A DNA stretch of 64,000 bases, from the NCBI GenBank assembly GCA_043228905.1, contig JBHGNT010000013.1:9734001-9798000 (forward strand), read 5' to 3'. A model generated the notes under the pieces. The model was not told where the DNA came from, ran no database searches, and worked only from the letters and a program-made list of their open reading frames with translations. Made by a program: the position numbers and the translations under genes. How positions within the stretch are numbered: position 1 is the first letter of the stretch; each line of letters begins with the position of its first letter. Positions 9,641 to 46,686 of the stretch are shown here, piece by piece. The stretch is from Azolla caroliniana. Its lineage: Eukaryota; Plantae; Polypodiophyta.

Positions 9641-10193
9641 TTATGTTTATAATGTTTCTGTTGTCTTCTTGATGGATGGTGATCGATCGACGTGCGGTCG
9701 ACCTTGATCCAAATATCGATCAACAAAGGAACTTCGGTAACTCTTTCTTGTTTTTTTTCTATTCTTTCTTCTCCCAATCTAATCATGTATAGTCAATATG
9801 TTTTTTTTATTGATTCAATGATGTTGTAGTGGTAATGGATTGGTTGTATAAAACGTATTCATATGTGCATGAGGTCAATACCTCATTTGACATATATTTG
9901 ATATGTGATTTGTGATGTATGTGTACGAGGTTAATACCTCAATTGTGTATTACGTTCACGTACAAATGTTACGTATGCGTATGAGGTCAATACCTCGTTT
10001 TCTATGTAAATGATATGTGTTTGGTGTTGTATGCATAAGAGGTCAATACCTCAATTGCGTATTACGATTAACCCTTATTTTTGGATGTTTCGTGTACGTA
10101 GAGGCTATATGCCTCAATTACGTATCTTGATTACATCATTATTGGCTATTTGATGTTACGATTTTTTTTTAATATAAGGATATGTGGTCACGT

Positions 10194-12960
10194 TGTCGCG
10201 TTGTTACGCGCGTGCGTGGAGAAAGGCGGGACCACGGGGGTCTTGGACTAGGGAGTGACGGAGCGTAGGAAGTCGTACTTCACCGTTTCCGGGGCACCCT
10301 AGAAGCACACCGGAAGCAACCGAAGGGAGAGAGAGAAAGAGAGGGAGCGCGCGCTTGACACCGACTCACGCACACGCACGCACACGCACACGCACACACA
10401 CACACACAGGCCGACCCGACTCACGCCCTTATGTACAAGAAACGTAGGAAAGGGGAAGCACCCGACACCAATAGAGACGCGAATATACATAGACCGACAC
10501 AATTGTATATATATATATAAGGAAGAATACATTCCCGGCTTCGAGCCGTTCCAAGGTAGGTTACAGTAGTCGTCAGCTGCCAAGCCGCCGGTCGGGGAGC
10601 TCACGGGCTTGTCGTGCCGAGCGGGGTCTTGCGCAAGAGACGAGCTCAAGCAAACCCTAAGCGAACACGAAGGGGGAGAAGAAGAAGAAGAAATGTAACT
10701 AACCCTAAATCTAACGGTATGCCCTCTAACGCAAAATGGGCAACCCTTTCACAAAGGACGCTCCCTTCCTTTTATAGAACAAGGAGAGGGATGCGTTACA
10801 ATGTGGGATAAATCCCGACTTACATGGGATCGTCTGTCCTGACTTGACTACTCTTCGGCGCCATAAAGGCGCCCTCGTTATTCACACTAAATGTACAAGG
10901 GTGAGCACACACGTTGCACCTTGCCGATGTAGCCAATGTTTCCCGGTTTCTGCCTCTGGCCGAAATTCTTCACGACATCCGCCCCCACCTAACCGCACGT
11001 CCACCGGTACGTGCCAAATCCGGTGAAGGGTGAGAGATTTCGGCCGTGAGAAACCGGTCTTCCGTGATCCGCATCCCGGCTCGCTGCCGGTTTGATCCGT
11101 TGGCTTCGATTCTTCCTTCGCGCTTACCTCCCCGTAGGCTCGTTTGACCCGTCGATGGGTCCTTTGCCGCGATCTCCGTAGTACGCGTACTTCCGTTGGC
11201 CCTTGTTCGCCCGTATGAACGCCCGCTCCCCGCCGTATGCCCGATGTCCTCCGCTTGAGGAAAGCCCGTAGTGGCCCACTTGGCCTCCATTGATCATTCG
11301 TGTTGTCCTGATTGCCGTCCCATGCTGCTTCGTATTGCCTTCGTCCTCTCGTTGCCACCTTCCTTCTCCATGCTCTTTACATCGCCGCGTCGGCTCGAAC
11401 CGCCATGGTCTCTGGAACGGTGTGGAGGATGCTTTCTGGCCTTCTACGCGCTACCTCCGAACCGCGCAACCTATCTCCGCGCTCGCCTTTCCGCTCCGGC
11501 ACCTCTGTGTGCCACATACCCTCGTCCGTTGTTTGGCACTGCCTGTGCCGTACTCCAGTTCATTGCACGCCTTGTCGGCCCCTTTCCCGGCCAGATCGTG
11601 CATCGCCGCTCACCCGCATACCGGTGTCCTCCGCATTCGAGGAACACCCCGTAGTAGCCCGCTTGGCCCTTCCCGTCTTCGTGTTGTTGCAATAGGTCCC
11701 GAGTCTTCCGCTTGCCGTCGTCCCCTCGCCCCACCAGCTTGTCACCCCGGCTTGCCGTGTTAGTCTTCGCTACTTCGACGGAGCTACCGAGATCTACGAA
11801 GCGAGTGTGGAGGATCCTCCTCTGGCCTCTCTTGCCATCCCCTGACTTCGACCCTGTGTACTCCACTAGGCACTTGTCACCTCGTTCCCGGCACCTCCCT
11901 TGTGCCGTCTTCCGCTTCCTTTGTTCGGCACCGCCCGTGCCGAACACTGTCCCGTAGTCACGCTTCGATCCGGCCCGCGATGGCCACTTGCGAGACTCTT
12001 GTTCCGTCCCAGGTGTGCCTTTCCGGCACGACACACCTCCTCGTGTTTGCCCCTACCGGCTCCTTCCGAAACCTCGTGTCGTTGGGCCCCGTTCCCTGCC
12101 GCCACCGTCCTTCTCCCTAGGTCTCACGTTGCCACGTTGGCCGAACTACCAGAGTCTCCGGATCGGTGTGAGGGTCCCATAGGACCGGACTCCGTTTCTA
12201 TGCTTGCCGAGATCCGGGTGTCTTTTGTTTGAGTCCCTCCCGGACTCTCCTCGTGTCTTCCGCGTAGTCGGGTCCCGTTTCCCGTTGCCACCAACCTTCT
12301 CTCTCGGTCTTATGTTGCCACGTTGGCCGATCTGCCGGAGTCTCTGGTTAAGTGTGGGGATCCCGTAGGACCGGACTTCCTTTCGCCCACAGACCTTGTC
12401 GGAAGGTCCGGTTCGGTTAGTAGCTGCCCCGCTGGCCTGATACCTTCTTTCTCTGTTTCTGTTGTCCGGTCACGTTCACTTACCGCCATCGTCCTCTCCT
12501 ATAGGACTCACGCCGGCACTCGGGCCGACAGCCGGATCGGTGTGAGGATCTTCGTGGGACCTCCCCTTCTGGCTTCGGTTGCCCGCCTTGCCGCCGCCAC
12601 CGTCCCTTACTCTAGGCCTCACGCCTCCCCTTGTCATTGGCTACCGGAGTCTCTAGAATCGGTGCGTGTAAGGTCACAGCTGCTCCGCTCCCTTCGCCAT
12701 TCTCTTCTGTTGGTCACGTTCACCTGCCGCCACTGTCCCTTCCTATAGGACTCATGCCGGCTCTCGGGCCGACCGCCGGATCGGTGTGAGGATCTTCGTA
12801 GACCGCCCATCCGTAGCCCTTTTTCTTCGTCACCTCGCCGCCACCGTCAGTATCTTGGTCTTACGTCGACCGCGTTGCCGACTGCCGAAGTCTCTAGAAC
12901 CGGTGTGAAGGATCCTCCTTGGGCGTCTGATTTGTCTTCCTGACCCTGTCCCGGGTCGAA
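10194..12960 (-). mobile_element. Element A: 5'-truncated non-autonomous member of the Trp-primed gypsy group (3' LTR 10194-10977)
   Basis: LTR ends tgtcgcg...cacgaca on the plus strand. The conserved PPT-region element lies at 10978-11017. The decayed GC-rich interior carries the TPVLETSAVG..DVRPR repeat also found in B. No pol motifs. The 5' LTR and PBS are lost at about 12960. Confidence 0.8.
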
Positions 12961-13273
12961 TATATGTTTAGACTTTAGGTCTAAGTGCACTTCGGGGTCC
13001 TCGTAATAGGACTTAAAGAGCCGAACCACATATGTGGGCATAGAAACATAGTTTATTGTTAACATTTTTTTCGTGTATAAACTATTCATGATGCGAACAT
13101 ACATGATTGAGCCCCCGGGAGCCACCATGAAAAAATCGATATAAGAGATCAGGGAAAGACATTCATTAGTCACCCCCATGGTTTTTAAAACACCTTTGTG
13201 TTACCATAGTAACCTGATCTTGAACCTCATCTTATACGTCTAGAGGGGTATTGACGTTGTCGCGGTAATCCAA

Positions 13274-16200
13274 TGTCATGATGTTCTGTGTCCAATGGGA
13301 GAAATTGTGAAATAGTGTGGCTCCACACACATTATACACATGATTATAAATATGAAAATTAGCCTAGGGTCTGATGACATTCAAGTGCATATAGAAGGGT
13401 GCAAGCAAGATTTGAACCTTGCACTTCTAAGATAGGAAGCAATTATCTTACCACTAAAGCTACTACTAAGTGCTTTAGATTTTATATATTTCCTTCTCAT
13501 ATTTCGTATTCCATAGGAAACAAACATACAAAACCGTGTACACAAAACCATGGTTTTAGCCTATGGTTTTGTGCAAGGAAAACCGTGTGCCTGAAAACCA
13601 TGGGTTCAAGCCCATGGTTTTGTGCATGTTAGAAGGATAGATAAACCTATAAAAACCCTCGTAAGGCTTGTGTAATGGGGGGGGATCAATCAATGGATGA
13701 ATCAAACAATATATGAATCAATCTATGTATCAAATCGAAAATTAATAATAAGAAAACTTAGTTATCTTATTGGTGACGTGTATCTATCTATCTATCTTAA
13801 AAACTTCCTCAATTTTTGTCTCTCTCTCTCTCTCTCTCTCTCTAACGACATTAGTGCATCACTTCAGCTGCCCATCATCAATCCTCCATAACCACTAGCG
13901 GATAGAGGCTCGGCGCTTGTCTGTGCTTGTGACATGCACATCTCGACGTTTGGCACGTGTGTCATGCGCCACACGACATCTATTTGGTGAACCCGACGTG
14001 AACAACACAAGGTGGTTATGTGGGCATTACGAAGGGATGATGTGATCTTGGCAACGTACGACTTAGAGGAGTCGATAAGATTACAAGGTGGTCCGAGGCT
14101 CGTGATGCTTCCATTGGTAAGGAAGGCCATCGACATGATGTTGCATGATGAAAAGGGTAGAGCGTTGGAGTATCTCAAGTTGGCAAATCAAGTTGAAAGA
14201 CTATATGAAGAAGTTCCGGATTTGTACGAAGCGGTTCTGACATCAAGTTTTGGGCCTCAACCTTTTCATGGTTTGCTCGATGGTGACGACGATGAAGATG
14301 ATCAAGATCAGCATAGTTGCAGTCGTGAAGAGACATGTGATGAAGAACATGGGCTCAAGAGGGAAGTTCGAGAAGGATACAATCATAAAGAGACAAGCAA
14401 TGAAGAACATCAATTCGAGGGGAATGACCAAGATACTCAAGGATGCGGTCATGAAGAGACTTTCAGCGAAGAAAGTGGGCTCGTAAGGAAAGATGAAGAT
14501 ACTCAAGGATGCAATGGTGAAGAGACATCTGACAAAGAACGTGGGCTCGAGGAGACCAATCAAGATCTACATGGTCATGAGAAAGACAAAGATCATTACA
14601 AACTCACAAAGAGTTCTCGAGAGCTACAAGGTTATGATCGTGACAAAGATTACTGTGAACACAAGAGGAGGAATCAAGCTCTTCATGGTTGTGCTAATGA
14701 AAAAGCACTCAACGAAAGTCGTGACGGTGAGAGTAGTTGGGATCAAGACTTTCATGGTTTAAAATCTTATGACAAGTATGATAGGTTTAATGACAACCAC
14801 GAACAAGAGGAGAAGTTAGGAAGGGATAAAAACTTTACATTTAAATGTAATGATGATGATGATTTAGGGCTTGACAATAGTAAGGGAGAGTGTATTATTG
14901 ATGGTAAGAGTGAGTGCCATAAGAAGAATGAGGGTTATGATGGTAAAACGTTATGCACTTTTTGTGGATATGGTTATGACAAGGGTAATGATGAGGGTGA
15001 GAGTGACGAAGAGGAATTGTGTGTTTTAGGTTGCCTTGGTTTTCTTCGGGATAGATTTTATAAGAGTTTCACTAGATCAAATGGTGACATTCATGAGGAC
15101 ATCCATTATGAAAATAGAATAGGGATTTGTGATGATGAGGACATTCTACAAAAATATGTCCATGATGACGTGGGGTTACATAATGATTACAAGGGTATAA
15201 GTATGGAAAATCTAGAAAATATTATTTGGGATGAGTATCATGATGATGTTGATGTTGTGAGTATGTGTGGGAAGGACAGGATTAAAGTTGATAGTATTGA
15301 GGATAATCTACAAAATGTTAGGATGGTTTGGGATGTGTCTAATGATAATGTTGATGTTGTGAGCATGAGGAAAAGCAAGCATAAGATGAGAAAAGACGAT
15401 TCGAGGAAGTTTGAGGACCAAGGAGATGGTCGAGATGAAGGCGGCACATGTACGATACATGACGAGTTACGCTTAGGAGGAGCAAAAGGGGCTACGACAA
15501 GTGGTCATGGAAATGCGAAAGGCGATCGAATGATATGGTTGATTGGGTGGAAGGAATGCATGTACTCAAAATGGAGGACAAAGGACGACACGTAAGGAAG
15601 GAGGAAACCAAAGACAACCCACCTTTTGACTCCGCCACATCACTCTTTTCTTCTTGGCACATGCCGGAGGATGTGCGGTTTGGTGGGGGTGGATGTCGTG
15701 ATGTTCTGTGTCCAATGGGAGAAATTGTGAAATAGTGTGGCTCCACACACATTATACACATGATTATAAATATTAAAATTAGCCTAGGGTTTGATGACAT
15801 TCAAGTGCATATAGAAAGGTGCAAGCAAAATGTGAACCTTGCACTTCTAAGATAGGAAGCAATTATCTTACCACTAAAGCTACTACTAAGTGCTTTAGAT
15901 TTTATATATTTCCTTCTCATATTTAGTATTCCATAGGAAACAAACATACAAAACCATGGTTTTAGCCTATAGTTTTGTGCATGCCACAAGGAAAACCGTG
16001 TGCCCGAAAACCATGCGTTCAAGCCCATGGTTTTGTGCATGTTAGAAGGATAGATAAACCTATAAAAACCCTCGTAAGGCTTGTGTAATGGGGGGGATCA
16101 ATCAATGGATGAATCAAACAATCTATGAATCAATCTATGTATCAAATCAAAAATTAATAATAAGAAAACTTAGTTATCTTATTGGTGATGTGTATCTATC

Positions 16201-16398
16201 TATCGATCGATCTATCTTAAAAACTTCCTCAATTTTTGTCTCTCTCTCTCTCTCTCTCACTCTAACGACATTAGTGCATCACTTCAACCACCCATCATCA
16301 ATCCTTCATAACCACTAGCAGATAGAGGCTCGGCACTTGTCCGCGCTTGTGACGCGCACATCCCGACGTTTGGCACGTGTGTCACGCACCATGCGACA
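13274..16398 (+). mobile_element. Element D: 3.1-kb non-autonomous Trp-primed LTR element with a single ORF
   Basis: 705-bp LTRs at 13274-13978 and 15694-16398. PBS TGGTGAACCCGACGTGA at 13985-14001. PPT region ggtttggtgggggtgga precedes 15694. Flanks are ccaa and ccac, where the intact LTR of C reads ccgc. Confidence 0.9.
14012..15595 (+). CDS. 527-aa acidic, His/Cys-rich protein of element D with ~20-aa internal repeats; function unknown
   Basis: Uninterrupted ORF (GTG 14012, first ATG 14018) filling the interval between PBS and PPT. Repeats such as QGCGHEETFSEESGL and QGCNGEETSDKERGL. The C-terminal DQGDGRDEGGTC...GHGNAK segment is shared with element F (ORF 47976-48281). Confidence 0.65.
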   Translation: MVMWALRRDDVILATYDLEESIRLQGGPRLVMLPLVRKAIDMMLHDEKGRALEYLKLANQVERLYEEVPDLYEAVLTSSFGPQPFHGLLDGDDDEDDQDQHSCSREETCDEEHGLKREVREGYNHKETSNEEHQFEGNDQDTQGCGHEETFSEESGLVRKDEDTQGCNGEETSDKERGLEETNQDLHGHEKDKDHYKLTKSSRELQGYDRDKDYCEHKRRNQALHGCANEKALNESRDGESSWDQDFHGLKSYDKYDRFNDNHEQEEKLGRDKNFTFKCNDDDDLGLDNSKGECIIDGKSECHKKNEGYDGKTLCTFCGYGYDKGNDEGESDEEELCVLGCLGFLRDRFYKSFTRSNGDIHEDIHYENRIGICDDEDILQKYVHDDVGLHNDYKGISMENLENIIWDEYHDDVDVVSMCGKDRIKVDSIEDNLQNVRMVWDVSNDNVDVVSMRKSKHKMRKDDSRKFEDQGDGRDEGGTCTIHDELRLGGAKGATTSGHGNAKGDRMIWLIGWKECMYSKWRTKDDT

Positions 16399-16547
16399 CC
16401 ACGAGTACGTGTCAAAAGGGGCGGGACCACGGGGGTCTCGGACGAGGAAGAGAGGGATGTTGGGAAGCCGACTCTCTCTCTGGTCCCGGCTGCACCGGTT
16501 GTGGCGCAAACTAGAGCGATTCCGGACACGTACCAGAGGCTGCCGAA

Positions 16548-16550
<3 letters not shown>

Positions 16551-16619
<69 letters not shown>
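16551..16619. repeat. (GA)n microsatellite within the LTR of element C
   Basis: Long GA run. A shorter run plus a local duplication sits in the other LTR at 26400-26550. Confidence 0.95.
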
Positions 16620-16620
<1 letters not shown>

Positions 16621-18947
16621 ACGCGCAACACCGACTCAACACACGCCTCTTATGTACAGGAAACAAAAGGAAAGAAACAATCCGACACCAATAGAGACAC
16701 GAATATGCACAACCTTATATATATATAATCACAGGAGCAAGATACAACTCCGGCTCTGAGCCAGACTAAGGTAGGTTAGGTTACAACATCAATTTGTTGC
16801 CAAGCCACCGATCAGGGAGCTCTCGGGCTCATCGCGCCGAGCGGGGTCTTGCACGGGAGACTGAGAAGTAGCAAACCCCACAGGACATACAAGGTCTTCA
16901 CTAGACTAAACCCTAAACAGACACGAAGAAGAAGACCTCAAAGAAACTCTAAGTAAGAAAAAGAAGAACTAACACACCTTCTACCTAAGTGGTATACCCT
17001 CCTAACTCAAAATGGGCAACCCCTCTATAAGGGACCCTCCCTTCCTTTTATAGCATAAGGAGGGAGGTGCCTAACAATGTGGGATAAATCCCGTATTACA
17101 TCGGATTCTCTGTCCCAACTTAACTCCTATTCGGCACCATAAAGTCGCCCCTATTATTTGCATGTATACACAAGGGTGGGTGCCCACGCCGCACCCCGTC
17201 GATGTTCCCATTATTCCCGGTTTTCTCGCTAAGGTCGGGAATCTTCACAACATCCGCCCCCACCAAACTACACGTCCATCGGTACGTACCAAATCCGATG
17301 AAGGGTGAGAGATTCCGGCCGTAGCGAGCAACCGGTCCTTCGTAATCCACATCCCAGCTGTCGTGTTGGCCTCCGCGTGCGGGGAACACCTCCTGTCGGC
17401 CCGCTTGGCCCCTTCTATTCCGCACTGCTGCAATTGGTTTGACGCCATACACTTGTCGTCGCCCCTTCGCCCCCCCCACCAGCTTGTTACCTCGGGCTTG
17501 GCCTGCCACGCGAGTCGTTGCCCCTTTGACTGAGCCGTTGAGATCTCCGAAGCGGGTGTGGAGGATCCTCCTTCGCTCACTGATATCGTTTCCGGTTAAT
17601 GACCCGTGCAGCCTATCCCGCGCCCGGTTCCCGACCCGACACCATTGTGTGCCAACTTCCATCTTCCTTGCTCGGCACCGCTTGTGCCGAACACTGTCCC
17701 GTACCCATGCTTTACTTTTGCCCTCAATGGCCACACACACGTCTTCTGATCCGCTTTCGGGTGTGCCCTTTTCAGCTCGACACACCTCTCCCCACTTGGG
17801 TGTCCTTGGTAGCTTTTTGTGCTGCTACCCATGAAGGATCACCCTTGCCGATTTTGGCCCACCTAGCCTTCGTTGTTCTCGCAACGCCTTGGTTGCTCGG
17901 TGCCTCTATTGCTACGGCCTTCGTCCCCTCGCTGCCACCGTCAATATCTTGGTCTTACGTCGGCTCCCGGTGCCGACCGCCGAAGTCTCTAGATCCAGTG
18001 TGGAGGATCCTTCTCGGGCCTCCAATCTGTTAGGCAACCGACTCGTGTACAAAGCGTGTCCCATCTTCGTCCTTCTGACCCTGCCGACTGGGTCTGTATC
18101 CGGTTCATGGCCGCATCGCCGGCCTGATACCTCCTTCCGCTCCTTTTCAGCCCTTCTGCTAGATCCCGTTGTCACGCTGTTACGCGCGTGCGTGCAGAAA
18201 GAGGTGGGACCACAGGGGCCTTGAACCGAGGAGCGAGAGAGTGAGAAGAGAAGAGAAGAGAAGAGAGAGAGAAGAGAAGATAAGATAAGATAAGATAAGA
18301 GAAGTCCTGCAGATACGCAACAGGGAGAAGGAAAGAGAAACAAACGACACGCTTAATTACAATAACAGTAGATTACAATATTCAGAGAAGGCGGCGATGG
18401 ACCCGACACGGGGACCCTACTCACGCACACGGACAGAACACACTCGACTCAAAGAAACAAAAGGGGGAGAGCCTCTGCTGGAAGCACATGGGCTGTCCAC
18501 GAAGCAGAGGCAGCGAACTCCCGACACCCACAGAGACCGACGATCGGAGGAGAAGAGAGAGCTCGTCACCCAGTTCTGCAGCAGCACTTCGTCCTCGCCA
18601 ACGTGCGATACCTCTATCTCCCTTCTCTCCCTCAAATAGTTCGCAACCAGGGGGGGTGCGCCCTTTCTCCCTAGTAAAATCGCTTTATTCTCTGTCCTTT
18701 TTGACAGAGATACGCACAATCCCCCAATAAATGAATACTAATTGGTATTTACATCAGCCGATCCATATATGAATCATGTACAAAATATCAAAATGTCAAT
18801 TCACGCATCCATCCGTGTAAGAGCCGGTCCATGCGCCCTTTTCTCCGGTTCCGCCTATGGCCGGTTTTCTTCACGACATCCACCCCCACCAAACCGCGCA
18901 TCCACCGGCATGCGCCAGAGACGGGTAGATACCGAAGCAAACCAGCT

Positions 18948-21900
18948 TCACTCGTCGCTCTCTGATTCTCCGCCGGGTCCGAACCGATTGTCGTTGTCGC
19001 TCCCGCTCGCAGGCTCTGGCTCGTCTTCGAACCACTTCTTGAACGCTTTGATCCGCTTCCCGGAAACCGGCACTGCTAGCCGTGTCCCGTCGAGTTCCGC
19101 GAGGTGGTACGTGCCGTTGCCATTCGCACTCATCACCGTGTAGGGCCCGAACCACCTCATAGCAAACTTCTGCACCGCCTTGTGCTGATTGTCGAGGCTG
19201 CTGTCGTACACCAAGACCTAGTCGCCTTCCTCGATCTTCTTCGGTCGCAACCGGTGTGTCCGGTTGAACCGGGTCTTGTTCCGCTCCCTTGCGGCCCGCA
19301 ACTTTTCCTTCGCCCTTTTCACGTCCTCCGGCCTCCGCTTGAGTTGCCGAATCCGCGCCGCTAGCAACTCCTCCCGGCTCATCTCGTCCTTCCAATCCAC
19401 CACTGCCCATGAAGAAATCGTTCGTTCCACCGGCATGATCGGCTTCTATCCGTACATCAACTCTGTCGGCATAAACCCTGTCACCGAGCTGTGCGTAGTT
19501 CGGTCCGCCCATAGTGCGTAAGGAAGGAGCCGCGGCCAATTCCCGACCTGCCCTCCGCATGCACGCACCAACACCTTTACAATCGGCCCGTGCCCACGTT
19601 CTACCTTCCCGTTCGCCTCCGGATTGTACGCCGTAGTGAGGGAGAGTTTTACCCCTAGCCGGTCGAACAGCTCCTCAGCTTCCTGCGCATCCAGTTCTCC
19701 CCGGTCCGCCACGATCCTCCCGACGCATCCGTACCGACACACTACCTCTTCGATCAGGAACCGACATACCTCAGTGGTTGTCTTGTTCTACAGTGCACGG
19801 CCTTCCACCTGGTTCGTTAAGTCTTCTCGCGCAAGCACCAGTATCACATCTATCCTACTCCCATCGGCATCGTCACCAAGTCCACCATCCACTTGAAATG
19901 GACCGCAGGCGGGTAAGTCGGGTGTAGCTCATCCCGATGTAAGACTACAGAGTGTATCTGATAGCTCTCGCAAGTCGTTACGTACCGATGCACGTCCTGG
20001 TACATCCCCGGCCACCAGTACTTCTCCTTCAGCTTTTCGAACGTGGCCCATGTTCAGCGGTGCCCGGCCCAGGGACTCTCGTGAAATGCCGCCAGTAGTT
20101 CCTCCTGTTCTTCTTTCTTTGCCACTACTCGGAGCGGGATGCCGTTTCTCTTCTTCAGGTGCCTCCATATGCACTCGTCCCGCAGGAAGAGTGTATCTGA
20201 CAGCTCTCGCAAGTCGTTACGTACCGATGCACGTCCTGGTACAGCCTCGGCCACCAGTACTTCTCCTTCAACTTTTCGAACGTGGCCCATGTTCCGCGGT
20301 GCCCGGCCTAGGGACTCTCGTGAAATGCCGCCAGTAGTTCCTCCTGTTCTTCTTTCTTTGCCACTACTCGGAGCGGGATGCCGTTTCTCTTCTTTAGGTG
20401 CCTCCATATGCACTCGTCCCGCAGGAAGAATCGGTATGCCTTCTTCCGTACCCGGCTCGCCTCTTCTCTCGTCCATGCTCCGTCCGGCGTCATCATCCGT
20501 AGGAACCTCTCGATTTGGAGCCACTCCCCGTCGTACCTGCTTTCGTCAAATTCGTTAAGCGCCGGAGTGTCCCTTTCCCTCGTCGCTACGTTAGCCGACC
20601 TGAAGAAGTTCTCGCAGACTTGTTCGTCATCCGAAACCATGCCGTCTTCGTCGTTGAAAACCTCGCTCTCGAAAGCATGTCGGCCATGGCGTTATCCTTT
20701 CCGGAGATGTGTTGTACCTCTCGGTTTAGGGACTTAATGTACGCTATCCACCGGAGCATTGCTAGGTCCGGCATCGCGCATCCGGAAACCATGTCGAGTA
20801 TCGGTAGGCAATCCGTCTCGATGATCACCTCCGTCCCGATTAGATAGTCCTTGTCGGCCTTGACTGCCGAAACGATACCCCAAAGCTCGCGCTTAACTTG
20901 GGCGTATCCTCGTTGCCGCTCGCTCAATACCTTCGCCCCGAACCGGATCGGGAATCGAACGCCGCCCTTGTCCTCCTGACTGATTACCCACCCGATCCCG
21001 GTCGGGCTCGTATCCACCGTCACGCAAATGGGGACATCCTTGCCGTAAACTGCTTTACGGAGAGCCGGTGCTACCGTAAGCGCCTCCTTTAGTCTCTGTA
21101 CCGACTCTGTGTGCTCCGTCCTCCACTCAAAGCTACGCCCCTTTTTCAATAGTCCGTAGAGGGGTTCCGCGACATGTGCGTAGTGCAGGATCTAGATGTG
21201 GTAGAACGCGCACGCCCCTAAGAATCTGCGGACCTCCGTGACCGACCCGCAATCGTTCCTCATCGCGGAGATGGCCTCTACCTTTGCCGGAGACGGTTTC
21301 CTACCGTAAGGCCCGCACAGGTGTCCGACCACCAAGATCTCCGACTGCCCGAATGCCGATTTTTCTCCGGAGAAGGTCAGTCGTGCACCCTCGAGCTTTC
21401 GCAGCACCTTCTCGCAGTCGTTGATGTGGGTCACGACGAACCTCCGGCATCCGTCTGGCCCGACAGTCTCATCCGCATCTTCCACCGGACACCCCTTTAT
21501 CGGGATATCGTCCAAGAATGGCATGGTGATGTCCGGGATGCAGTCCCTTAGCACCTTGTTCATTGCGTTCACCATATGCGCCACCGAATTCGTCCCGCCT
21601 TGTGGTAGGGTACACATCCGTACTAGGCCGAGGGGGGTTCGCATCGTCGTGATATCCCTGCTCTCCACGGCTAGCTGGAACTGGTCGTACCCTGAGTATA
21701 AGTCACCGACCGAATAGATCGACCTTCCAGCGAAGGCCTCCGCGAACTCGTCTATGGTTGGTCTGATTCCTGCATTACGGATGGTCACCTTGTTGACCGG
21801 TTGCAGGTCCTGAATGAAGCGCAGCGTGCCGTTCTTCTTCGGCACCATAAACCACCGATTCGAATACGGGGCGCTCGACGGTTCGAGGATGCCCATCTCC

Positions 21901-24765
21901 ACATTTTGCTTTAGAAGCTCCATCAACTTCGGGATGTGAGCTCTCCGCACCAGAATCGGTTTGAGATTCCACGGTACATGCGGTACCGTGAAGATCACCA
22001 TCGGTTCGACGATCGTCGGGTCCACGCACCTGATTTCCTCTGGCGAGAACACGAAGGCTTTCCCATGCCCTCCGAGCATTCTCTGAAACCTGTCCTCCTC
22101 CACCGGCAGTAGGAAGCCACCCCCACCAACCTTGAGCTAATGTAGCGTTATGTTGGTGAACCGATGCCCTATGCCAGCCGGATTCCGTAAACTTGGGTCC
22201 GACGCGACCCCTTTTATCCGCTCCTCGCTGCCCTCCGGCAAGGGTGTCGCGATTGGCCTCACCTTATGGTCCATAGTCTTGTACTTTGTATCCATGCGGG
22301 CCGTCCGATCCGACCCGATCCTTTCCCCGAAGTCCGCGATGACTTCGTACATTCCCATTGAACTAAACAGAATGGTCCGGTTTTCTCTAAGGTCTTCACC
22401 GATCACCTTTCGCAATTCGCCCAAGGTGTCGTCAAAAGAGACCGCCTCTACGGCACCACTGATGTCTTCGTCAGGGGAGAGGACACTGCATCCCCTGAGC
22501 CGCTCCTCCGCTTGCTTCCTCTCCCGGTCGCTGACGCCGGTTATAGTATAACCTCCGTTTTCGGAGAACCAAAACTTTCTACCTACTGTACATGTGTGGG
22601 GTTCTTTCCGTACGTCCGGACTACCGCGGCCCCACGCCTTGATAACCCTCTCTAAAAATCCCCTCTGCCACCGCCGAGGGTCTCGCGATTCCTCTCATGG
22701 TTCGGACGTACGGTCATGAATTGGACGGAATGTCGACCATCCTGGCTGTTGACGCGCGCATACGCCAAACCGTTGTCCAGCATTTTCGTCTCCATGCGTG
22801 CTGCTGTAATGTATGGTTCGCCAAGAATCACCGGGTGCGAGGATGTTTCCTGCACGAAGAAATGTTGATCTATCTCGACGTCACCGACCTTTATGCGTAT
22901 ATTCGGGCACGCACCATGCAGCTCCTCCGTAGCATGCATCGTCGCGCATATTTTCCACCCGTGCTTAGTGTTGATCGGCCATTTACCCTTCTTGTAGAAA
23001 TCCATGGACATCAGGTTGATTTCGGATCCATGGTCTACCAAAGCCACCACCAGTTCCGGAACGTCGCCGATCCGCACAGGGGTTTCCGTAGTTGCCCTGG
23101 CCCAATGCGGCTTCGTGTAGTGGCTTTCCGCCAACTCGTCTTCTAGGGCCGCGTCTTCTAAGTGCGTAGTCCGCACCTCCACCGGCTTCTCTAGTTCTGG
23201 CTCCGTGGAGAGCCTCTTCCACTTCACCAAGTCTACGATGGAGTCGTGGAACTCCCTCTTGGCGATTCCCAGCACCTCCCGCAACGACAGCTCCACTTTA
23301 CTGTCGAGGATCCGCTCTTCAAGGACCTTCCGTAGGTCCGTTGCTCTCTCGATTTCGGTGCTCAACCGAAACCCCACCTGCTTCTTTCCGTCCGGCGCGC
23401 CTGGGTTGCCGGCACTGGTCGGTTTCGGTCTGAACCGGGTCTCATACCTCTGCGGGGAACCCACCCCGCCGGCCTTTCCTATCCGTTTGTCTTCCACCAG
23501 AACCTCGTAGTTCTGGCAAGCGGCTTATACGAAGCCCGTTTTCTCTTCGACCGGATCGTCCCATCCGGTGACCTCCTGGACCCGCTTTTCCGCGCGGTCC
23601 ACCTCTTCCTTCTTCAGCCGAACTCCGGAGAAGCCTTCTAGCACTAGCGGCCAGAATCCGGAGTCCTTCACCTTCCGGGACTCGTCACCCCCGACCCGAA
23701 TTCCCGCCGATACTGAGTAGTTAATGGCTTCAATGTGCCGTGCCGCGGCCTCTTCCATCAACCTCTTCATTCCGTCGCGCCCCGTATTTAGGTCTAGGGC
23801 TCTTCGGGTCTCACTCGCGTGCACCCGCCCGTTCTAGAGGTACACCACGTTGATCCAGAGTGCGTCGGCGAAATCTGCGCAATCCTTCCGAATGTGACCA
23901 ATCGCGTCATACCACATGCACTGTTGCCCAGCTGGCGGCCTCCGGTCGCGAGGTTGTTCACCGCTGTCTCTCCGGGCCTGTGCGATCTACAGGTCGCGCA
24001 CCATTTGTGTCAGCTCCTCCAGAGCCGCTCCTCCGGATGGGCCTCTAACTACTCCATTCGATGCAGACCCCGACTCCAGCCAAATTCGGGTCTCTTCTTT
24101 CCTACCGGCTGGCACTGATACCGGCTCCTCGATCCTCCCCGTCGGGACCGGCCCTGACTCCAATCACGTCGTTTGTCAAAACGGCTGCAGACCCGTTTTA
24201 CCACGACCCAGTCTGCCGTGAACCCTTCGTCCGTTTCCAATAGGGGACCCACCTTTTCCCAGTCGAGCGCGTCCACCGACTTGACAAACAACAGTACTCG
24301 ACTCGTTTCGAGCATCGTCCGGTCCAACATCAACAACCGCGCGAACCTTTTTTCGAACTCCTGGAGGAGCACCGACGTGTTCCTCCCTTTTCCGGGGCTT
24401 TCCACCCACGCCATGAAGTCCCGCCTCGACAGCCGAAGCGAGTCGTCAAACCCGTACTTCTCGAGGAGCTGCAACTCGAACTCCTCCCAAGTCCGGCATC
24501 CGGCCAACACCTCGAGCACCTCCGCATGGATGTTCAGCGTCACCACCCGAGGGAATCCGGACAGCCGCTTGTCCACCGGGATATCCCTCATGATCATTTC
24601 GGCCCGGTAAGCCTCCAAATAACTTGTGGCGTCTTTCCCTCTGAACCGGCCTATAGTGCCGACGATCGATTCAATGGCTCTGTCGAGGGTACCCGTCCCC
24701 TCACGAGCGCTTACCAGCCGGTTGACAACTACCACCATTGCCTCTACTAGCTTTGATCCCCTCAT
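18948..24765 (-). pseudogene. gag-pro-pol polyprotein of element E, with stops and frameshifts
   Basis: Capsid (ORF 24049-24792). Degenerate zinc knuckle CMWYDAIGHIRKDC at ~23880-23920. Protease LVDHGSEINLM. RT YSVGDLYSGYDQF and PFLDDIPIKG. RNaseH VTVDTSPTGIG...ELWGIV...IETDC. Integrase HESPWAGH, IVADRGE, AYNPEANGKVERGH and WFGPY. Confidence 0.92.
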
Positions 24766-24788
24766 TTTTCGACTCCTTTGCCGCCCTT

Positions 24789-24805
24789 TCACGTCGGGTT
24801 CACCA
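24789..24805 (-). promoter_or_regulatory. Primer-binding site, tRNA-Trp (also at 13985-14001 +, 26215-26231 -, 35594-35610 -, 49956-49972 -)
   Basis: TGGTGAACCCGACGTGA is complementary to the 3' 17 nt of plant cytosolic tRNA-Trp(CCA), as recalled (...TTCACGTCGGGTTCA-CCA). It lies 4-6 nt from the LTR end. Confidence 0.85.
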
Positions 24806-26396: not shown

Positions 26397-26437
<41 letters not shown>

Positions 26438-30420: not shown

Positions 30421-30637
30421 TCTTTCTCTCCCGCGTACAGTCTTTGTGTGATTAAGCTTTCCATTAAACTTGTGTATATTCTCTGTTGCTATACGATGAA
30501 GCCGGTTTCATCGACAAGCTTCTGCACACTACTTTTTACATGGTATCAGAGCGCGAGGGTTGAGAAACTCTATTGTCAACAAGCGATTTCCATAGACAAA
30601 CCGTAACTTCCGGAAAAGCACAAACCGAAAAGAACGG

Positions 30638-33600: not shown

Positions 33601-36315
33601 TTGCTCGCTCCGCACCCTCTCCCATGCCGTCGTCGTTTCGGTTGCCCGCCTTGCCGCCGCCACCGTCCGTCACTCTAGGCCTCTCGCCGGCTCTCGGGCC
33701 GGGTGCCGGAGTCTCTAGGACCGGTGTGTGGAAGGTCGCGACACCACCACTCCTCTCGTCCGTAGCCACCTCCATTCGAACATCGTCGTCCGTGGCTACC
33801 CCGTCTTCGGTTTCGCAAGCATCGAGTATGCTTGCCGCCGCCTCTTCTTCGCCGGACTCGTCCTTATCTCGGTTGTCCGCCTTGCCGCCGCCACCGTCCG
33901 TAGCTCTAGGTCTCGTGCCGGCACTCGGGCCGACCGCCGAAGCCTCTAAGGCCGGTGTGTGGAAGGTCGCGACACCGACACTCGTCTCCTCTTCCTCCTC
34001 CATTTCGCAAGCCTCGAGTATGCTCGCGAAATCCTCGTAGAACGTTTCGGGCAACCGCGTCCCGAAACTTCCGCCCACTCTCGAAGTGGCGTCCATCGCT
34101 CCGTAGATATCGGCCTCGTCCATGGCCGTTCTTTTTCCCCGAGATGAGACGGTCGCTTGCCCCGCACCTTCTCTCGTGTCGACACCGTGGTCGCCCGCCT
34201 TGCCACCGCCACCGCCTTTCACCATAGGTCTTACGCGGGCACTCGGGCCGGCCGCCGTGATCTCTAGGAATGACGCGTGTAAGGTCGCGTGACCGCCGCT
34301 CGTCGATGTAATGTCCGTAGCCACCTCCGCTCGAACGTCGTTGTCCGTGGCTACCCCGCCTCCGTATATGCAAGCATCGGTTATGCTTGCCGCCGCCTCT
34401 TCCGCGGTCTCCTTACCGTTGTCTCGGTTGCCCGCCTTGCCGCCGCCACCGTTCTTTTCCCTCGGTCTCACGCGGGCGCTCGGGCCGGCCGCCGGGGTCT
34501 CTTGAACCGGTGCGTGGAAGGTTGCGGTACCGCCGCTTGTCTCCTCCGTACTCGATGATTCGGGCCGCCATGTCCCGAATCCGCCATGTCCACTCGAATC
34601 GGCGATCGCCGCCTCACCGTCCCCGACCTCGTCCTCGGTCGTTCTTTCCCCCCATGTCGAGAGGGCGGCTCGCTCCGCACCCTCTCCCGTGGTACCGATG
34701 CACCATTCTCTTTCGGCCTCCGCATAGGCCCCGTCCTCCATGTGTGAGGAAGCTCCTTCCTCCGATCCGCTCGGGCCCGACCCCGCAATAAGCCATTCTT
34801 CGGCTTCGATTTTCGCCATTACGAGCCCGCACGCCTCCCGTATTAGCGCTTGTAGGTCGAGCCCCTCCAAACCGGTTCGCGATGAGCTCTCGTCCGGCGG
34901 CATGGCGTAGTCGGTCGTCGCTCTCTCTTCTCCCCCGCTCGCGGGCCGTGTTGTGGCCGACCGCCTCGCCTCGTGTTGCCGACACACCCATTCCACTTCG
35001 GGCCACTCCTCGGTGAGACCATGCGCCCCATAATCGTCTTGAAGCTCGAACATGATGTCCATCCTCTCCTCATGATGGACCGTCTCCAAAAATAGGAGGA
35101 CTTTGTCCGCCCCCACCGATCTTCGTTCCCACTCCGAGAGTTGAGAGAAACGACGCTCGAACTCTCGGAATGCCTCTATTGCGCTCCGATGGCGCCTCGC
35201 CGACGCCATCCACCGATCGAACTCTCGCCGACCTCTTACCTCCGATTCCGCGCACCCGTATGCCTCCATTAGAGCCCTTTCAAAGGACTCCCACGATTCG
35301 TGAGCTTCTTGGAGCTCCTTGACCTCCTCGTACTTTGATGCGGCCGCCGCTCGACGAAAGAACTCTAGCCTCGTCGCTTCGTCCACGCCCATCCCCGTCA
35401 TTTCCGCATCGTAGGCTCTCAAAAATTTTGGGACCTCCTTCCCATCGAACCGGCCGACTAGACGGACCACCCTTTCGACCGCTTGTTGAGCCGCCTCTCG
35501 CCTCGCCCTCTTCCGTCCGGCGTCCATCAAGATCTTTGTCATCATCTCCTCGAAGTCGAAGCCTTCCTCCATCTCTTTCTCCCTTGCCGCCCTTCACGTC
35601 GGGTTCACCAAAGATGTCGCGTTATTACGCGCGTGCGTGGAGAAGGGCGGAACCACGGGGGTCTTGGACTAAGGAGAAGGGGAGAAGGAATAGGACTTCG
35701 GAATGGAGCTTAGCACAAGAAGAGAAAGAATGAACAAGAGGAAGATGGAGGCCAAATGCTCAACAAGATATATTAGAACTGAAAACCGATTACAAAATGG
35801 CGGCCGCGTAGGCCGCACCGAACGACTATGATAAACCCCGAAACCCTAATCCGACGAAGAAGAAAAGAAACCCTAACTAAGGAACCCTAAACGAAACCCT
35901 AACCCTAAAACGAAATGGTATACCTCACTCACACTCAAAAATAAGGCAACCCCCACAATGGTGTTCTTCCTCTCCTTTTATAGCACAAGGAGAGAAGACC
36001 GTTTCCAAAAGGGTGCTACAAAATATCCCCTTTTCAATCAATGGGGATATTTCCCTTGATTTTAGGGGAGGTGGGAAGGATGGGTCTTAACTCCCACCTC
36101 TACACGAACTACCACGTACCTATCTCTCTCTCTCACGTGGATGTGCGCGCAAAAGCACATCACCTTTACACTTTACAAATCCTAAGGTGCATTTCTAGCA
36201 CCTTACTTATCACTATCGATAAATAGAAATACAACATGTTGATGTGCAACGTTGCACATCGCGGGTTTGCTTGCTTCGCTCGGTTTTCCGCCTATGGACG
36301 AAAATCTTCACGACA
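30638..36315 (-). mobile_element. Element B: very young pol-less (gag-only) Trp-primed LTR element
   Basis: 701-bp LTRs at 30638-31338 and 35615-36315 with one difference seen by eye (31193 c versus 36170 a). TSD ACGG (30634-30637 and 36316-36319). Perfect Trp PBS at 35594-35610. Confidence 0.95.
31331..35572 (-). CDS. 1413-aa Gag-capsid-like protein with a long Gly/Ala/Thr/Glu-rich repeat tail; no PR, RT, RH or INT
   Basis: The N-terminal ~200 aa align by eye with the gag of E (VGRFDGKEVPKFLRAYDAEM / IGRFRGKDATSYLEAYRAEM; EFERRFSQL / EFEKRFARL; KVLLFLETV / RVLLFVKSV). At least six copies of GGxATFHTPxLExxAxGPSAxxRPRxTDGGGGKAG follow. The stop is the TGA inside the LTR start TGTCGTGA. Confidence 0.85.
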   Translation of the reverse strand: MEEGFDFEEMMTKILMDAGRKRARREAAQQAVERVVRLVGRFDGKEVPKFLRAYDAEMTGMGVDEATRLEFFRRAAAASKYEEVKELQEAHESWESFERALMEAYGCAESEVRGRREFDRWMASARRHRSAIEAFREFERRFSQLSEWERRSVGADKVLLFLETVHHEERMDIMFELQDDYGAHGLTEEWPEVEWVCRQHEARRSATTRPASGGEERATTDYAMPPDESSSRTGLEGLDLQALIREACGLVMAKIEAEEWLIAGSGPSGSEEGASSHMEDGAYAEAEREWCIGTTGEGAERAALSTWGERTTEDEVGDGEAAIADSSGHGGFGTWRPESSSTEETSGGTATFHAPVQETPAAGPSARVRPREKNGGGGKAGNRDNGKETAEEAAASITDACIYGGGVATDNDVRAEVATDITSTSGGHATLHASFLEITAAGPSARVRPMVKGGGGGKAGDHGVDTREGAGQATVSSRGKRTAMDEADIYGAMDATSRVGGSFGTRLPETFYEDFASILEACEMEEEEETSVGVATFHTPALEASAVGPSAGTRPRATDGGGGKADNRDKDESGEEEAAASILDACETEDGVATDDDVRMEVATDERSGGVATFHTPVLETPAPGPRAGERPRVTDGGGGKAGNRNDDGMGEGAERATLSSCGEWTAKDEAGDYKAESATSKVGGRFGARRPKTSSGEEASGGAGSLPTPILEASAVGPSAGTRPRTTGGGGGKAGKQNDAENGEEEVVASILEAYGIGDGGAADNDVRTKAATETTSGGAGSLPTPILEAPMAGPSAGMRLSATGGDGGKAGNGNEKEDWSGRRQDPLTPGPETSAVVLECQRETEEVGDDREEVRPGESAYEDEYAGPGMGVYGGSDGEDRSGNEERVGNRPDRNTARKKKRVRAGEPGPNRRKPARPIGRLRLRLRWEPVSARWRLTGHDDHGSGEKRKQTRPSIPTLETTAVADQHKTGETASGGEESETGAYEVTGTDIRYEIVDGWVQDGEPMSERATATKEEKTDTEVESTAEERDEMHAIRPMEGQDTSMPTKEPHRATEDDGRITPSRGEYEEEGGDDETWHDAREDWWEEVAYGEAKTGGHEDKAREGSSTPAIETPAVGASADVRSRVADGGGEGTKATTDEGTERGIREVAENEDVCAQKNEHDITKDVCGQAGQEGQEGVPPSETEVGEEGYLSERVREEERNAKRALRPHEGQATSTGTMVCSTAREHDKQREGEKCVMGSSKDRSTSTHSEDDTDVRGKPTEGERGARRVGTTRCAKGGSGGYARRTKGRQRRSGGPNGEESAGIGYGGPSVVGGSRKHGGRGGSSGGNDSASVVECGGSDGADGSRPFDEGGGPEGDGGSCGRGGRRSRASPRGCQGLGWPPWPKISHFVPLLAHTGGCAVRWGRMS

Positions 36316-36329
36316 ACGGGTTGAAGAAA

Positions 36330-40180: not shown

Positions 40181-40589
40181 TGAACCGGTACTGATACGGG
40201 GAGAACTGGAATTGGGAAAACCGGTAATGGCACCGGACAAGCAACCAGAGAGAAGGAAACAACCGCAACAAGGGGAGACAAGAGGAAAAAGGGAGCCGAT
40301 TCAATTGAGGAAGTCAGCACATTCGAACAAGTCGGAACAAGCGGCGATGACAGTAGAGACAAGAAGAAAGAGCCGATAGAATGAGAAGGCCAAGACTTAG
40401 ACATGGTCTGACGTGGTGAAAGGCCTGAATGTTAAAGACAAATTGGAGACATCCAATTCGGACAAGAGCTAGAACAAATCGGAGGTACACAATTCGGAAG
40501 AGGAGTTCGATTTGGAGGATCTGAATCAATAGAAAGCCAAACGAATGAGGAGGCAATGGAAGTTGACACTGACACGGAGGAACCGACGG

Positions 40590-41332
40590 TGTCGCAGAAA
40601 TATGCGCGTGCGTGTCGAATAGGACGTGACCATAGGGGTCTTGGACTAGGGTGTAAGAGGAGGGAGAGAAGCTTGGGAGTTAAACTGAGAAGGAAGAGAA
40701 AGATTAAGATTCAAGAGAATAAGATCTAAACAAAACAAGATACATTATGGAAAACACCACACCAATTACAACCGTGGTCGTGTAGGCCGAATGTAAACCC
40801 TCTAGATGAAACCCTAACCGAATAGGGGAAAAGAAGAAGAAGAAGAAGAAGAAGACGACAAATGAAACCCCTAAAACGAGATCCTAAAACCCAAAATTCC
40901 AAAACCCTAATGGCAACCCAAAGAAACCCAAAAAGTGGAAGTCCCTCCTCACTCAAAATAGGCAACACCCTCACAAGAGACCCCTCACTCCCTTTTATAG
41001 TAGTAAGGGGTGAGGCACATTACAAAAGGAGAGGTCAAATCCCCTTCTTTCAATGGGGAATATTTGGCCTTGATCTTAAATCGGTGGGCCTTTAACTCTC
41101 TCTCCTCTCACATTCACACTCAATGCCCACTACTCCCTACACCCATTCTTCATGTACTTTCCTCTAGTCTACAAAGTGCATATCACATTTATACCCCACA
41201 CTTTACTTGTCCTTCTTACATTTGTATATTTATTCATATGTTACAATTTTCCTAAGTATATGTGCAATGTTGCACATCTCGCTTTATTCGTTCCGCTCGG
41301 GTTTTCTCACCATGGCCAAAAACCTCACGACA
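40590..41332 (-). mobile_element. Element G: solo LTR (743 bp) of the Trp-primed gypsy group
   Basis: Ends tgtcgca...cacgaca, interior similar to the LTR of B, flanked by ACGG on both sides (40586-40589 and 41333-41336). Confidence 0.9.
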
Positions 41333-41976
41333 ACGGATCGAGAAGCGTTGAAGTTGCAACATCGAAAGAGTTGAGATGGGCATGTTGAGCAGACAAGCTG
41401 ACCAAGAAGGTCGAGAGGTGCGGAACCGGATGGGCGGAGGAGCGCGAGCAAGGTGGGAAGATGCCAGGAGGAGTCGGAGGAAAGGACCGGCCGACACTGA
41501 CACCATGATCTGACCTCAAGTTGAGCTTGAGGGGGCGTGTTGAGCGGACAAGCTCAACCAAATCCGGATCGGATGAATAAGCCAGAGCCGGATCAATATC
41601 CGGAAAGGAGAACCGGGTAGGTATGCGGAATGGAGAACTGGATCGGATTGTAACCGGTAGGCCGTTAGAGGCCTACAGTCCTAGCCTAGTATGTAGGTAT
41701 ATTTCTTGAAGTTAGTGTCAGTCGCTCATATGAGCATTGAAGTACATGTCAGTACTTCTGTCACTCCTTTTAAGTACTTGTATAAAAAAGTGTTTTGTAG
41801 GACATTGTATGCACAAAGGATTATTATTTTGAATAGATTTTTATTGTTCTACTCTCTTTGTCTCTCCCGCATACACTCTTTATGTGACTAAGCTTTCCAT
41901 TAAACCTGTGTATATTCTCTGTTGCTATCCGGTGAAGCAGGTTTCATTTACAAGCTTCCACACACTACTTTTTACA

Positions 41977-42032
41977 AGAAGAAACAGTAGATTGACAGAG
42001 ATGGAAGCTTCAATGGAAGTTCTTTGTTACTA

Positions 42033-42074
<42 letters not shown>

Positions 42075-45600: not shown

Positions 45601-46221
45601 ATCTAGAGTCTCTACTTCAATGTCATATGTAATGTCTCCCTTTTAGGTCCATTGATCATATTCGACCTTCGAGGTTCATAATAAAATCTCTTTCTCAAAT
45701 GAGAACCCTACTTTTTTTATAGGGGAGAAGAACACTAGGAGAAAGAAGAATACAATATAAGGCTAGTTATGAATAGGTAGAAAGAGAAGTAAGAAATAAA
45801 ACTTGTGAATCCCACGTGTTTAGTGTATTTAATCAATATTTAGATTGTAAGAAAGAGAATTTTGATGATAAACTCATGAATCCCACGAATATATTAGATT
45901 GATCAATCCTTGTAAAATAATCAACCAAATCATACATCTTTCTCTCCTCCTTATATAAGGATGGAAGAGGCTAAGGATAGCGTCATGCTTTTTCTAAAGT
46001 GTTCATGCACACTAAATGTGCATGAGTTGCTTTTTACACTATGCTTTTATTTCCTAAATATAGTGCTCATGCTCGTTAGATGTGCACAAGTAATTTTTTA
46101 TTGGTGTACATTTTTCTTATAAATAAAGTATTCACACATTCTAAAAATGTATGACTTACCTTTTAATAAAGGTAGGCGTAAATAAAGGTCTTATATACAT
46201 TAAATCTATATTTAAAACACA

Positions 46222-46295
46222 TAGGATAAGTTAGTACAATGGTAAGGTTGGGGTTTGTTTATGTGGAGGTATAAGGTTCGAACCTTGTACTATGC
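46222..46295 (+). other. Degenerate tRNA-like or SINE-head sequence with Pol III A and B boxes
   Basis: A-box-like tagtacaatgg (46232) and a B box in a T-arm hairpin aagGTTCGAACctt (46273-46286). No credible anticodon arm. Confidence 0.4.
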
Positions 46296-46686
46296 ATGTA
46301 ATAATCTTTTCTTCTATTTATAAATTTGTCTCTTCATCCGGTGAGAGACTCTCACTGACCTTCTTTATCCGGCTCTTGCCAGTTCTGCTTGATCCGGTTC
46401 TTACCGGGTCTCCTTACTGGGTCCTCCTTGTCGGTTCCTCCTTCATCCAGTTCTCATCGGTTCTCCTTACCGGTGTCGCGAAAATACGACGAGGATACGT
46501 GAACTTGAGGCGGGACACCGGGGCCTCCGACTAGAGGATATCACATTCGTGCGTTTATATTTTTTAACAATTAATGGAAAGAAGAAATTTAATAATTTTT
46601 TCATTAGCAAAGGAAAAGAAATTACAATAAGTCCCAAGATTGGGATTCAGAAGTTTAGGTTTTTACTAAGTTTAATAGAAAAGAAA

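What the first reader, a model, noticed from the sequence alone, without database searches (positions are those of the whole stretch)
10190..46473. Trp-primed gypsy group inserts into CpG-centred 4-bp target sites
Seen: four insertions have exact 4-bp TSDs: C ACGT, E CCGT, B ACGG and G ACGG. D has ccaa/ccac where the intact sister LTR reads CCGC, which fits CpG decay. The two truncated copies keep left flanks ACGT (A, 10190-10193) and CCGG (F, 46470-46473). So all seven sites fit (A/C)CGN, including two inside an AT-rich leader. Knowledge: most plant LTR elements make 5-bp TSDs with weak sequence preference. Inference: this integrase targets CpG, possibly methylated CpG, which would steer insertions into existing TEs and help explain the nesting.
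Basis: partly seen in the sequence, partly recalled or inferred. Interest (0 to 1): 0.8.

Follow-up and report, generated by a model that had tools for sequence, protein, structure and literature searches.

The report
Phygy-type retrotransposons insert at CpG
These jumping genes really do insert almost only at 4-base sites with CG in the middle, but that habit was published in 2019 for the moss Phygy lineage, to which they likely belong, and I found no sign that the CG has to be methylated.

Summary
Of 99 insertions with both ends read, 55 have an exact 4-bp duplication, none an exact 3-, 5-, 6- or 7-bp one, and 95 have CG at positions 2-3 in at least one copy; the other 4 read TG/CA. Background CG is 3.7%. 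A copia family in the same genome makes 5-bp duplications without CG. The primer site matches the host tRNA-Trp gene. This is published: Neumann et al. 2019 list Phygy as 4 bp (100%), NCGN, tRNA-Trp. Only element E encodes integrase; the others lack pol or are solo LTRs. What is added here is small: a sharper motif (ACGT about 6-fold over expectation, TCGA never, 0 of 92), and nesting explained by CG density alone (sites in repeats 69%, random CpGs 71%, random positions 48%). Methyl-CpG targeting is neither supported nor excluded; decay of the duplications shows methylation after insertion only. Three look-ups in this scan's notes showed no earlier report of this feature.

The parts
10190..10193 (.). 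Outer flank of element A (ACGT); half of a presumed target duplication
10194..12955 (-). Element A, truncated: 3' LTR 10194-10977, purine tract next to it, GC-rich internal remnant without pol; end near 12955 is approximate
13254..13257 (.). TSD of C, left copy (ACGT)
13258..27141 (-). Element C: 3' LTR 13258-17252 split by D, 5' LTR 26236-27141, PBS 26214-26231; carries E; no pol of its own; LTRs 93.2% identical
13274..16398 (+). Element D inside the 3' LTR of C: LTRs 13274-13978 and 15694-16398 (95.8%), PBS from 13985, one 534-aa acidic ORF, no pol; flanks CCAA (13270-13273) / CCAC (16399-16402)
18166..18169 (.). TSD of E, left copy (CCGT)
18170..25508 (-). Element E, 7339 bp, the only one with gag-PR-RT-RH-INT (broken by stops and frameshifts); LTRs 18170-18878 and 24810-25508 (95.5%); PBS 24788-24805
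25509..25512 (.). TSD of E, right copy (CCGT)
27142..27145 (.). TSD of C, right copy (ACGT)
30634..30637 (.). TSD of B, left copy (ACGG), in the leader of a copia element
30638..36315 (-). Element B, 5678 bp, LTRs 30638-31338 and 35615-36315 (99.86%), one open frame of about 1420 aa starting with a gag-like part, no pol
35593..35610 (-). tRNA-Trp primer binding site of B, 4 nt from the LTR end
36316..36319 (.). TSD of B, right copy (ACGG)
40586..41336 (-). Solo LTR G (40590-41332) with ACGG on both sides
46470..46473 (.). Outer flank of element F (CCGG)
46474..51154 (-). Element F: 3' LTR 46474-47908, gag-like internal part without pol, 5' LTR 49977-51154 cut short

Best explanation
These are non-chromovirus Ty3/gypsy LTR retrotransposons, likely of the Phygy lineage, that insert with a 4-bp duplication centred on CG, and their integrase likely picks the site by reading DNA sequence and bendability rather than methylation. 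Shown: 4-bp duplications, CG at positions 2-3, preference ACGT > CCGT/ACGG > GCGT/ACGC with TCGA absent, Trp primer site, pol order PR-RT-RH-INT with no chromodomain or extra RNase H hit, and many copies without pol. Inferred: an integrase from pol-bearing copies such as E acts in trans on the pol-less copies, which share the LTR termini; it cuts with a 4-bp stagger and bends the target at the central pyrimidine-purine step, as shown for foamy-virus integrase, with added base contacts that narrow YR to CG. Because repeats in this genome are CG-rich, the motif alone would produce the nesting. The duplicated sites likely become methylated afterwards and decay to TG/CA.
For:: 55 of 99 exact 4-bp, 0 of 99 exact at 3, 5, 6 or 7 bp; CG in at least one copy in 95 of 99; 20 of 20 elements with LTRs at least 99% identical; 25 of 25 in a position-ordered sample. 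Background CG 3.7% in 400 kb. Copia control: 3 of 3 two-sided sites are 5 bp, 0 of 27 outer flanks have CG at that place. Flanking-base bias in 92 inferred sites: ACGT 27 vs 4.8 expected, TCGA 0 vs 9.8, TCGC/GCGA 0 vs 9.0, which points to sequence readout. Repeat context equal to random CpGs (69% vs 71%), flank CpG o/e not different (p=0.22). Domains. P. patens relatives over gag, PR and the start of pol. Phygy row in Neumann 2019. Central YR step in 4-bp integrases (PMC4422553). CG-centred targets in Drosophila ZAM-subgroup elements (PMC5408687), a host with little CpG methylation (recalled).
Against: No tree with labelled Phygy sequences could be built; named RT relatives are liverwort (Riccia) proteins, and the P. 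patens matches carry no lineage label. The 10 pol-bearing elements measured are 5.7-7.2 kb and E is 7.3 kb, below the published Phygy range of 7.7-10.0 kb. 88 of 95 sites have some repeat match within 292 nt, so most targets may well have been methylated, and a methylation-aided choice is not excluded. The repeat controls come from only 40 stretches and are not independent. No biochemical data.
Confidence: 0.72

Rival explanations
1. The integrase, or a host tether, prefers methylated CpG and so aims at silenced repeats.
For: Most sites are in or near repeats. Duplicated sites decay as methylated C does: TG/CA copies rise from 2 of 40 (LTRs at least 99% identical) to 7 of 34 (under 96%) and 23 of 88 (solo LTRs). 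A 1992 paper on CpG methylation and retroviral integration in vitro appears as a title; I could not read it.
Against: No excess in repeats over random CpGs. Decay accumulates with age, so it reflects methylation after insertion. The strong flanking-base bias is not predicted by methylation. No chromodomain or methyl-binding domain hit in pol. 2 of 20 young insertions have no repeat match on either side.
Confidence: 0.15
2. The elements are a separate, unnamed non-chromovirus clade of non-seed plants (sister to Phygy, or near TatI) that shares the NCGN habit.
For: Only 27-65% protein identity to P. patens proteins; shorter than Phygy; relatives in liverworts and a fern, whereas Phygy was defined from one moss. 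TatI also has 4-bp TSDs and a Trp primer.
Against: All tested Phygy features are met; TatI always has an extra RNase H, not found here; Neumann 2019 calls element size of little value for classification.
Confidence: 0.1
3. The pattern is an artefact of LTR boundary choice or of a CG-rich genome.
For: The LTR termini themselves contain CG, and flanks are CG-rich (4.6%).
Against: Boundaries were set by aligning LTR to LTR and from the purine tract, without using the flanks; the duplications are exact at 4 bp only; the copia control shows no CG; binomial p about 3e-47 for 37 of 39.
Confidence: 0.02

Closest known systems
non-chromovirus|Phygy (Neumann et al. 2019, PMC6317226; seen: passages, section 9, supplementary lineage table)
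   Same: 4-bp TSD, NCGN motif, tRNA-Trp PBS, no extra domain in the polyprotein, no extra ORFs, pol filling the internal region; P. patens proteins match E over gag, PR and the start of pol.
   Different: Only 27-65% identity to the P. patens proteins; pol-bearing copies 5.7-7.3 kb vs 7.7-10.0 kb; 15 of 25 sampled copies lack pol (Neumann filtered such copies out); the motif here is narrower than NCGN.
non-chromovirus|OTA|Tat|TatI (same table)
   Same: 4-bp TSD and tRNA-Trp PBS.
   Different: TatI has an archaeal-type RNase H in all 4 listed elements and no stated motif; no second RNase H was found here.
Drosophila errantiviruses, ZAM subgroup (PMC5408687; passages)
   Same: Gypsy-group elements with a sequence-specific, CG-containing palindromic target.
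   Different: Target given as CGCG (central GC step); animal host, env gene, AGT-type LTR ends.
Prototype foamy virus intasome (PMC4422553; abstract and passages)
   Same: 4-bp stagger, central pyrimidine-purine step, T and A disfavoured at the first and last TSD positions.
   Different: Weak YR bias, not a near-obligate CG; retrovirus. Used as a mechanistic model only.
Jedlicka et al. 2019 nesting survey (PMC6911290; passages)
   Same: Reports 4-bp TSDs with GC-rich centre and AT-rich edges, 4 bp as dominant in Phygy, and Phygy nested in Tcn1 in P. patens.
   Different: Pooled logos; no comparison with random CpG sites in the passages seen.

Membership tests
Phygy | 4-bp TSD | tested here: met
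   55 of 99 exact at 4 bp, 0 at 3, 5, 6, 7 bp
Phygy | NCGN target motif | tested here: met
   95 of 99 with CG in at least one copy, 4 with TG/CA in both
Phygy | tRNA-Trp PBS | tested here: met
   match to host tRNA-Trp(CCA) gene; 1146 exact LTR-PBS junctions genome-wide
Phygy | Gypsy domain order PR-RT-RH-INT, no chromodomain | tested here: met
   pol match ends 97-141 nt before the 3' LTR in the 10 pol-bearing copies, 108 nt in E
Phygy | No extra RNase H, no extra ORFs; polyprotein fills the internal region | tested here: met
   Pfam at E up to 1 on four ORFs of L337 and on P0001 shows one RH
Phygy | Clusters with Phygy in RT-RH-INT phylogeny | not testable with these tools
   no labelled REXdb sequences available; indirect support from 18 P. 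patens proteins
TatI | archaeal-type RNase H (aRH) in the polyprotein | tested here: not met
   no second RNase H hit; Pfam may be insensitive, but no unassigned region of pol gave one
Selgy | tRNA-Ala PBS | tested here: not met
   PBS is Trp (table)
Chromoviruses (Tcn1, Galadriel and others) | chromodomain at the end of integrase; Met or self priming | tested here: not met
   the relative P0001 is 78% identical to E's pol but 23% to the other gypsy RT in the window
Methyl-CpG-directed integration | target cytosine methylated before insertion | not testable with these tools
   no bisulfite data or empty-site alleles; the indirect test showed no excess in repeats over random CpG

The most novel reading that the evidence does not exclude
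The integrase of this lineage reads 5-methyl-CpG directly, without a chromodomain, and so places new copies in already silenced DNA; it would be a plant integrase guided by DNA methylation itself, in a lineage that spans mosses, liverworts and ferns.
Probability: 0.1. Interest if true: 0.75.

Novelty: new member of a known kind. Interest (0 to 1): 0.2.

Why it matters
The feature is already in print, so the finding is mainly a confirmation in another genome. The useful additions are a sharper target motif, evidence that CG density alone accounts for nesting, and a ready test system: a near-obligate CpG target is the strictest sequence preference listed among plant LTR lineages in Neumann 2019, and mosses have CG-methylation-free mutants (bioRxiv 2020.03.04.971267, abstract), so the methylation question is directly testable. 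If methyl-CpG readout were shown, it would be a new way of aiming insertions at silent chromatin.

Tried and rejected
5-bp or other TSD lengths: 0 exact of 99. Boundary artefact: rejected. Extended motif outside the TSD: only weak signals at 64 sites (C at -1, G at +1; symmetrised p=0.003, uncorrected), not claimed. A left/right asymmetry of CpG decay between the TSD copies looked strong in the first set (19 vs 6) but was 2 vs 2 in the position-ordered set and 18 vs 8 in the stricter combined set; 18 of 20 young elements show no CG decay, so damage during gap repair is unlikely. An orientation bias (CCGT 18 vs ACGG 7, p=0.04 uncorrected) is noted but not claimed. Naming the closest RT relatives through cluster members gave no organism names. 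A pattern search for the tRNA-Trp gene found nothing; ARAGORN found it. GingerRoot (PMC6839031, passages) is not comparable: 6-bp TSD, no motif. RLG2/RLG3 of P. patens could not be tied to Phygy from PMC7466625 (passages: no TSD data). No paper on methyl-CpG targeting by Phygy appeared or 71 (listings only; subscription journals are not covered). Only 60 of the 100 listed junctions were read in full.

Full report
Observation in the window. Self-comparison and reading of the sequence give seven elements with TGTCGTG...CGCGACA-type ends; six lie on the minus strand, D on the plus strand. One search confirms exact 4-bp duplications for C (ACGT), E (CCGT), B (ACGG) and the solo LTR G (ACGG), the single flanks of A (ACGT) and F (CCGG), and CCAA/CCAC for D, whose site reads CCGC in the sister LTR. 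D needs one change that is not CpG decay, so it is compatible but not evidence. LTR identities are B 99.86%, D 95.8%, E 95.5%, F 95.3%, C 93.2%. A and C sit in the leader of a Met-primed gypsy element (PBS at 9629), E and D inside C, B and G inside a copia element. CG makes up 3.0-3.8% of that leader, so it is not scarce there.

Primer and anatomy. The PBS is complementary to the 3' 15 nt of a tRNA-Trp(CCA) gene of this genome plus CCA. The exact LTR-PBS junction occurs 1146 times in the 523-Mb genome, the backwards control 0 times. Only E carries pol. A near-intact relative (L337) and a database relative (P0001) show PR, RT, one RH, zinc finger, rve and a weak SH3-like hit, with no chromodomain and no second RNase H at E up to 1.

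Genome-wide test, set 1. Each of the seven LTRs was searched in the genome; 30 loci per query were read, 210 in all, out of the 40 best candidates scored per query. After 5 duplicates were dropped there were 75 two-sided sites and 72 one-sided flanks; the remaining ends were internal or could not be placed. One two-sided site was later dropped because its right flank is a decayed PBS. Four of the window's own sites (B, D, E, G) are in this set. Of the 75, 39 were exact 4-bp duplications and 0 exact at 3, 5, 6 or 7 bp; 37 of the 39 have CG at positions 2-3 (binomial p about 3e-47 against a flank CG frequency of 4.6%). One-sided flanks: 58 CG, 10 TG/CA, 4 other of 72. All seven families behave alike.

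Set 2, not chosen by similarity. The first 60 of the 100 listed junctions (of 1146) were read as 10-kb stretches. Both LTRs were found in 28; 3 were dropped (two had a PBS as right flank, one end was misplaced); of the 25 left, 16 are exact 4-bp, 0 exact at other lengths, and 25 have CG in at least one copy. For the other 35, 23 left flanks could be read: 15 CG, 6 TG/CA, 2 other. The exact-match anchor favours less decayed elements, and elements over about 9 kb or with nested insertions were missed.

Combined and controls. 99 two-sided sites: 55 exact 4-bp, 95 with CG in at least one copy, 4 with TG/CA in both. Background from 40 evenly placed 10-kb stretches: CG 3.7%, o/e 0.80. A copia family of the same genome gave 3 of 3 two-sided sites with 5-bp duplications and 0 of 27 outer flanks with CG at that place (2 of 30 loci skipped). 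In 92 inferred original sites (element orientation) position 1 is A 42, C 26, G 19, T 5 and position 4 is T 58, G 22, C 11, A 1. Against CG-centred background, ACGT is 27 vs 4.8 expected, CCGT/ACGG 25 vs 9.5, GCGT/ACGC 18 vs 8.2, TCGA 0 vs 9.8. Bases outside the TSD carry little signal.

Methylation and nesting. Both flanks match other fetched loci in 66 of 95 insertions, 285 of 400 random CpGs and 193 of 400 random positions; flank CpG o/e does not differ from random CpGs (p=0.22). So the motif alone accounts for the enrichment in repeats. Insertions inside this group's own sequence are fewer than for random CpGs (9 of 95 vs 87 of 400), which age order can explain. These controls come from 40 stretches and a small library, so they are rough. 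With longer flanks 88 of 95 sites have some repeat match, so many targets may have been methylated; this neither shows nor excludes a preference. TG/CA in TSD copies rises with age (2 of 40, 3 of 36, 7 of 34, 23 of 88), and junction-made CAG/CTG sites decay one-sidedly (10:0 and 4:0). Both point to methylation after insertion (inference; strong CHG methylation in a moss is described in bioRxiv 2020.03.04.971267, abstract).

Mechanism. Shown: stagger of 4, CG centre, flanking bias, Trp priming, many pol-less copies (15 of 25) with the same termini and the same target. Inferred: integrase supplied in trans; bending at the central pyrimidine-purine step as in foamy-virus integrase, where local preference is largely independent of chromatin (PMC4422553), with base contacts that narrow it to CG. 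I put this at about 0.7, methyl-CpG readout at 0.10-0.15.

Comparison with what is known. Neumann et al. 2019 state that Phygy elements have an insertion preference for NCGN, the one exception among plant LTR lineages, and tabulate 186 elements, 4 bp (100%), tRNA-Trp 81%, no extra domain, 7656-9968 bp. Jedlicka et al. 2019 report GC-centred 4-bp TSDs and Phygy nested in Tcn1. Every Phygy feature I could test is met. Eighteen P. patens proteins match E's gag, PR and the start of pol at 27-65% identity; named RT relatives are from Riccia at 59-71%, and a fern appears among PR relatives, so the group is probably wider than one moss. Placement in a labelled tree was not possible, and the pol-bearing copies here are shorter than the published range. 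TatI, Selgy and chromoviruses each fail a tested feature. The element-level supplement of Neumann 2019 was not seen and may already contain the flanking bias.

Earlier notes of this scan concerned another gypsy group without a purine tract and a planarian element; none bore on this finding. Only 8 of 35 fitting notes were shown.

Verdict. Real, strong and genome-wide, but a published property of a known lineage. New members, a refined motif, and no evidence for the methylation step. Interest 0.2.

Noticed in passing
window 31331-35593 (-); L322, L327, L345, L347, L353: Young pol-less copies keep one open frame through nearly the whole internal region (758-1428 aa): a gag-like start (33% to E's gag) followed, in B, by acidic repeats. 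15 of 25 sampled elements lack pol. Looks like selection on a gag fusion protein in non-autonomous families.
   Followed up: partly
TSD copies genome-wide: The LTR ends create new CHG sites with the TSD (CA+G, C+TG). Position 1 changes G to A only in the right copy (10 vs 0) and position 4 reads T left / C right only (4 vs 0): likely CHG-methylation decay at the junction, which biases old TSDs towards A at position 1 and T at position 4.
   Followed up: partly
PBS of all families: The PBS starts 4 nt after the LTR end in families A, B, C, E, F and 5-6 nt in D; longer than the 2 nt I recall as usual, which may mean a longer 3'-processing step.
   Followed up: no
window 13991-15595 (+): D's 534-aa acidic ORF shows no blastp match (first 200 aa) to the gag-like regions of B, E or F and no Pfam hit; D is grouped only by LTR termini, PBS and purine tract.
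   Followed up: partly
window 9195-9431 / 51357-51593 and 30041-30250 / 51155-51366: An inverted copy of the host gypsy LTR and a duplicated piece of its pol lie right where F is cut off: a local rearrangement.
   Followed up: no
window 19949-20190 / 20188-20429: Tandem 240-bp duplication (97%) inside E's integrase region.
   Followed up: no
L153, L323, L336: LTRs with a purine tract on one side and a PBS on the other: tandem elements sharing an LTR.
   Followed up: no
L166, L167: Two A-family LTRs 8 kb apart with identical right flanks that resemble the element's own internal sequence; counted once.
   Followed up: no
L273, L274: Clusters of tRNA genes and decayed copies (Thr, Asn, Asp; Trp) in two of the 40 background stretches.
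   Followed up: no
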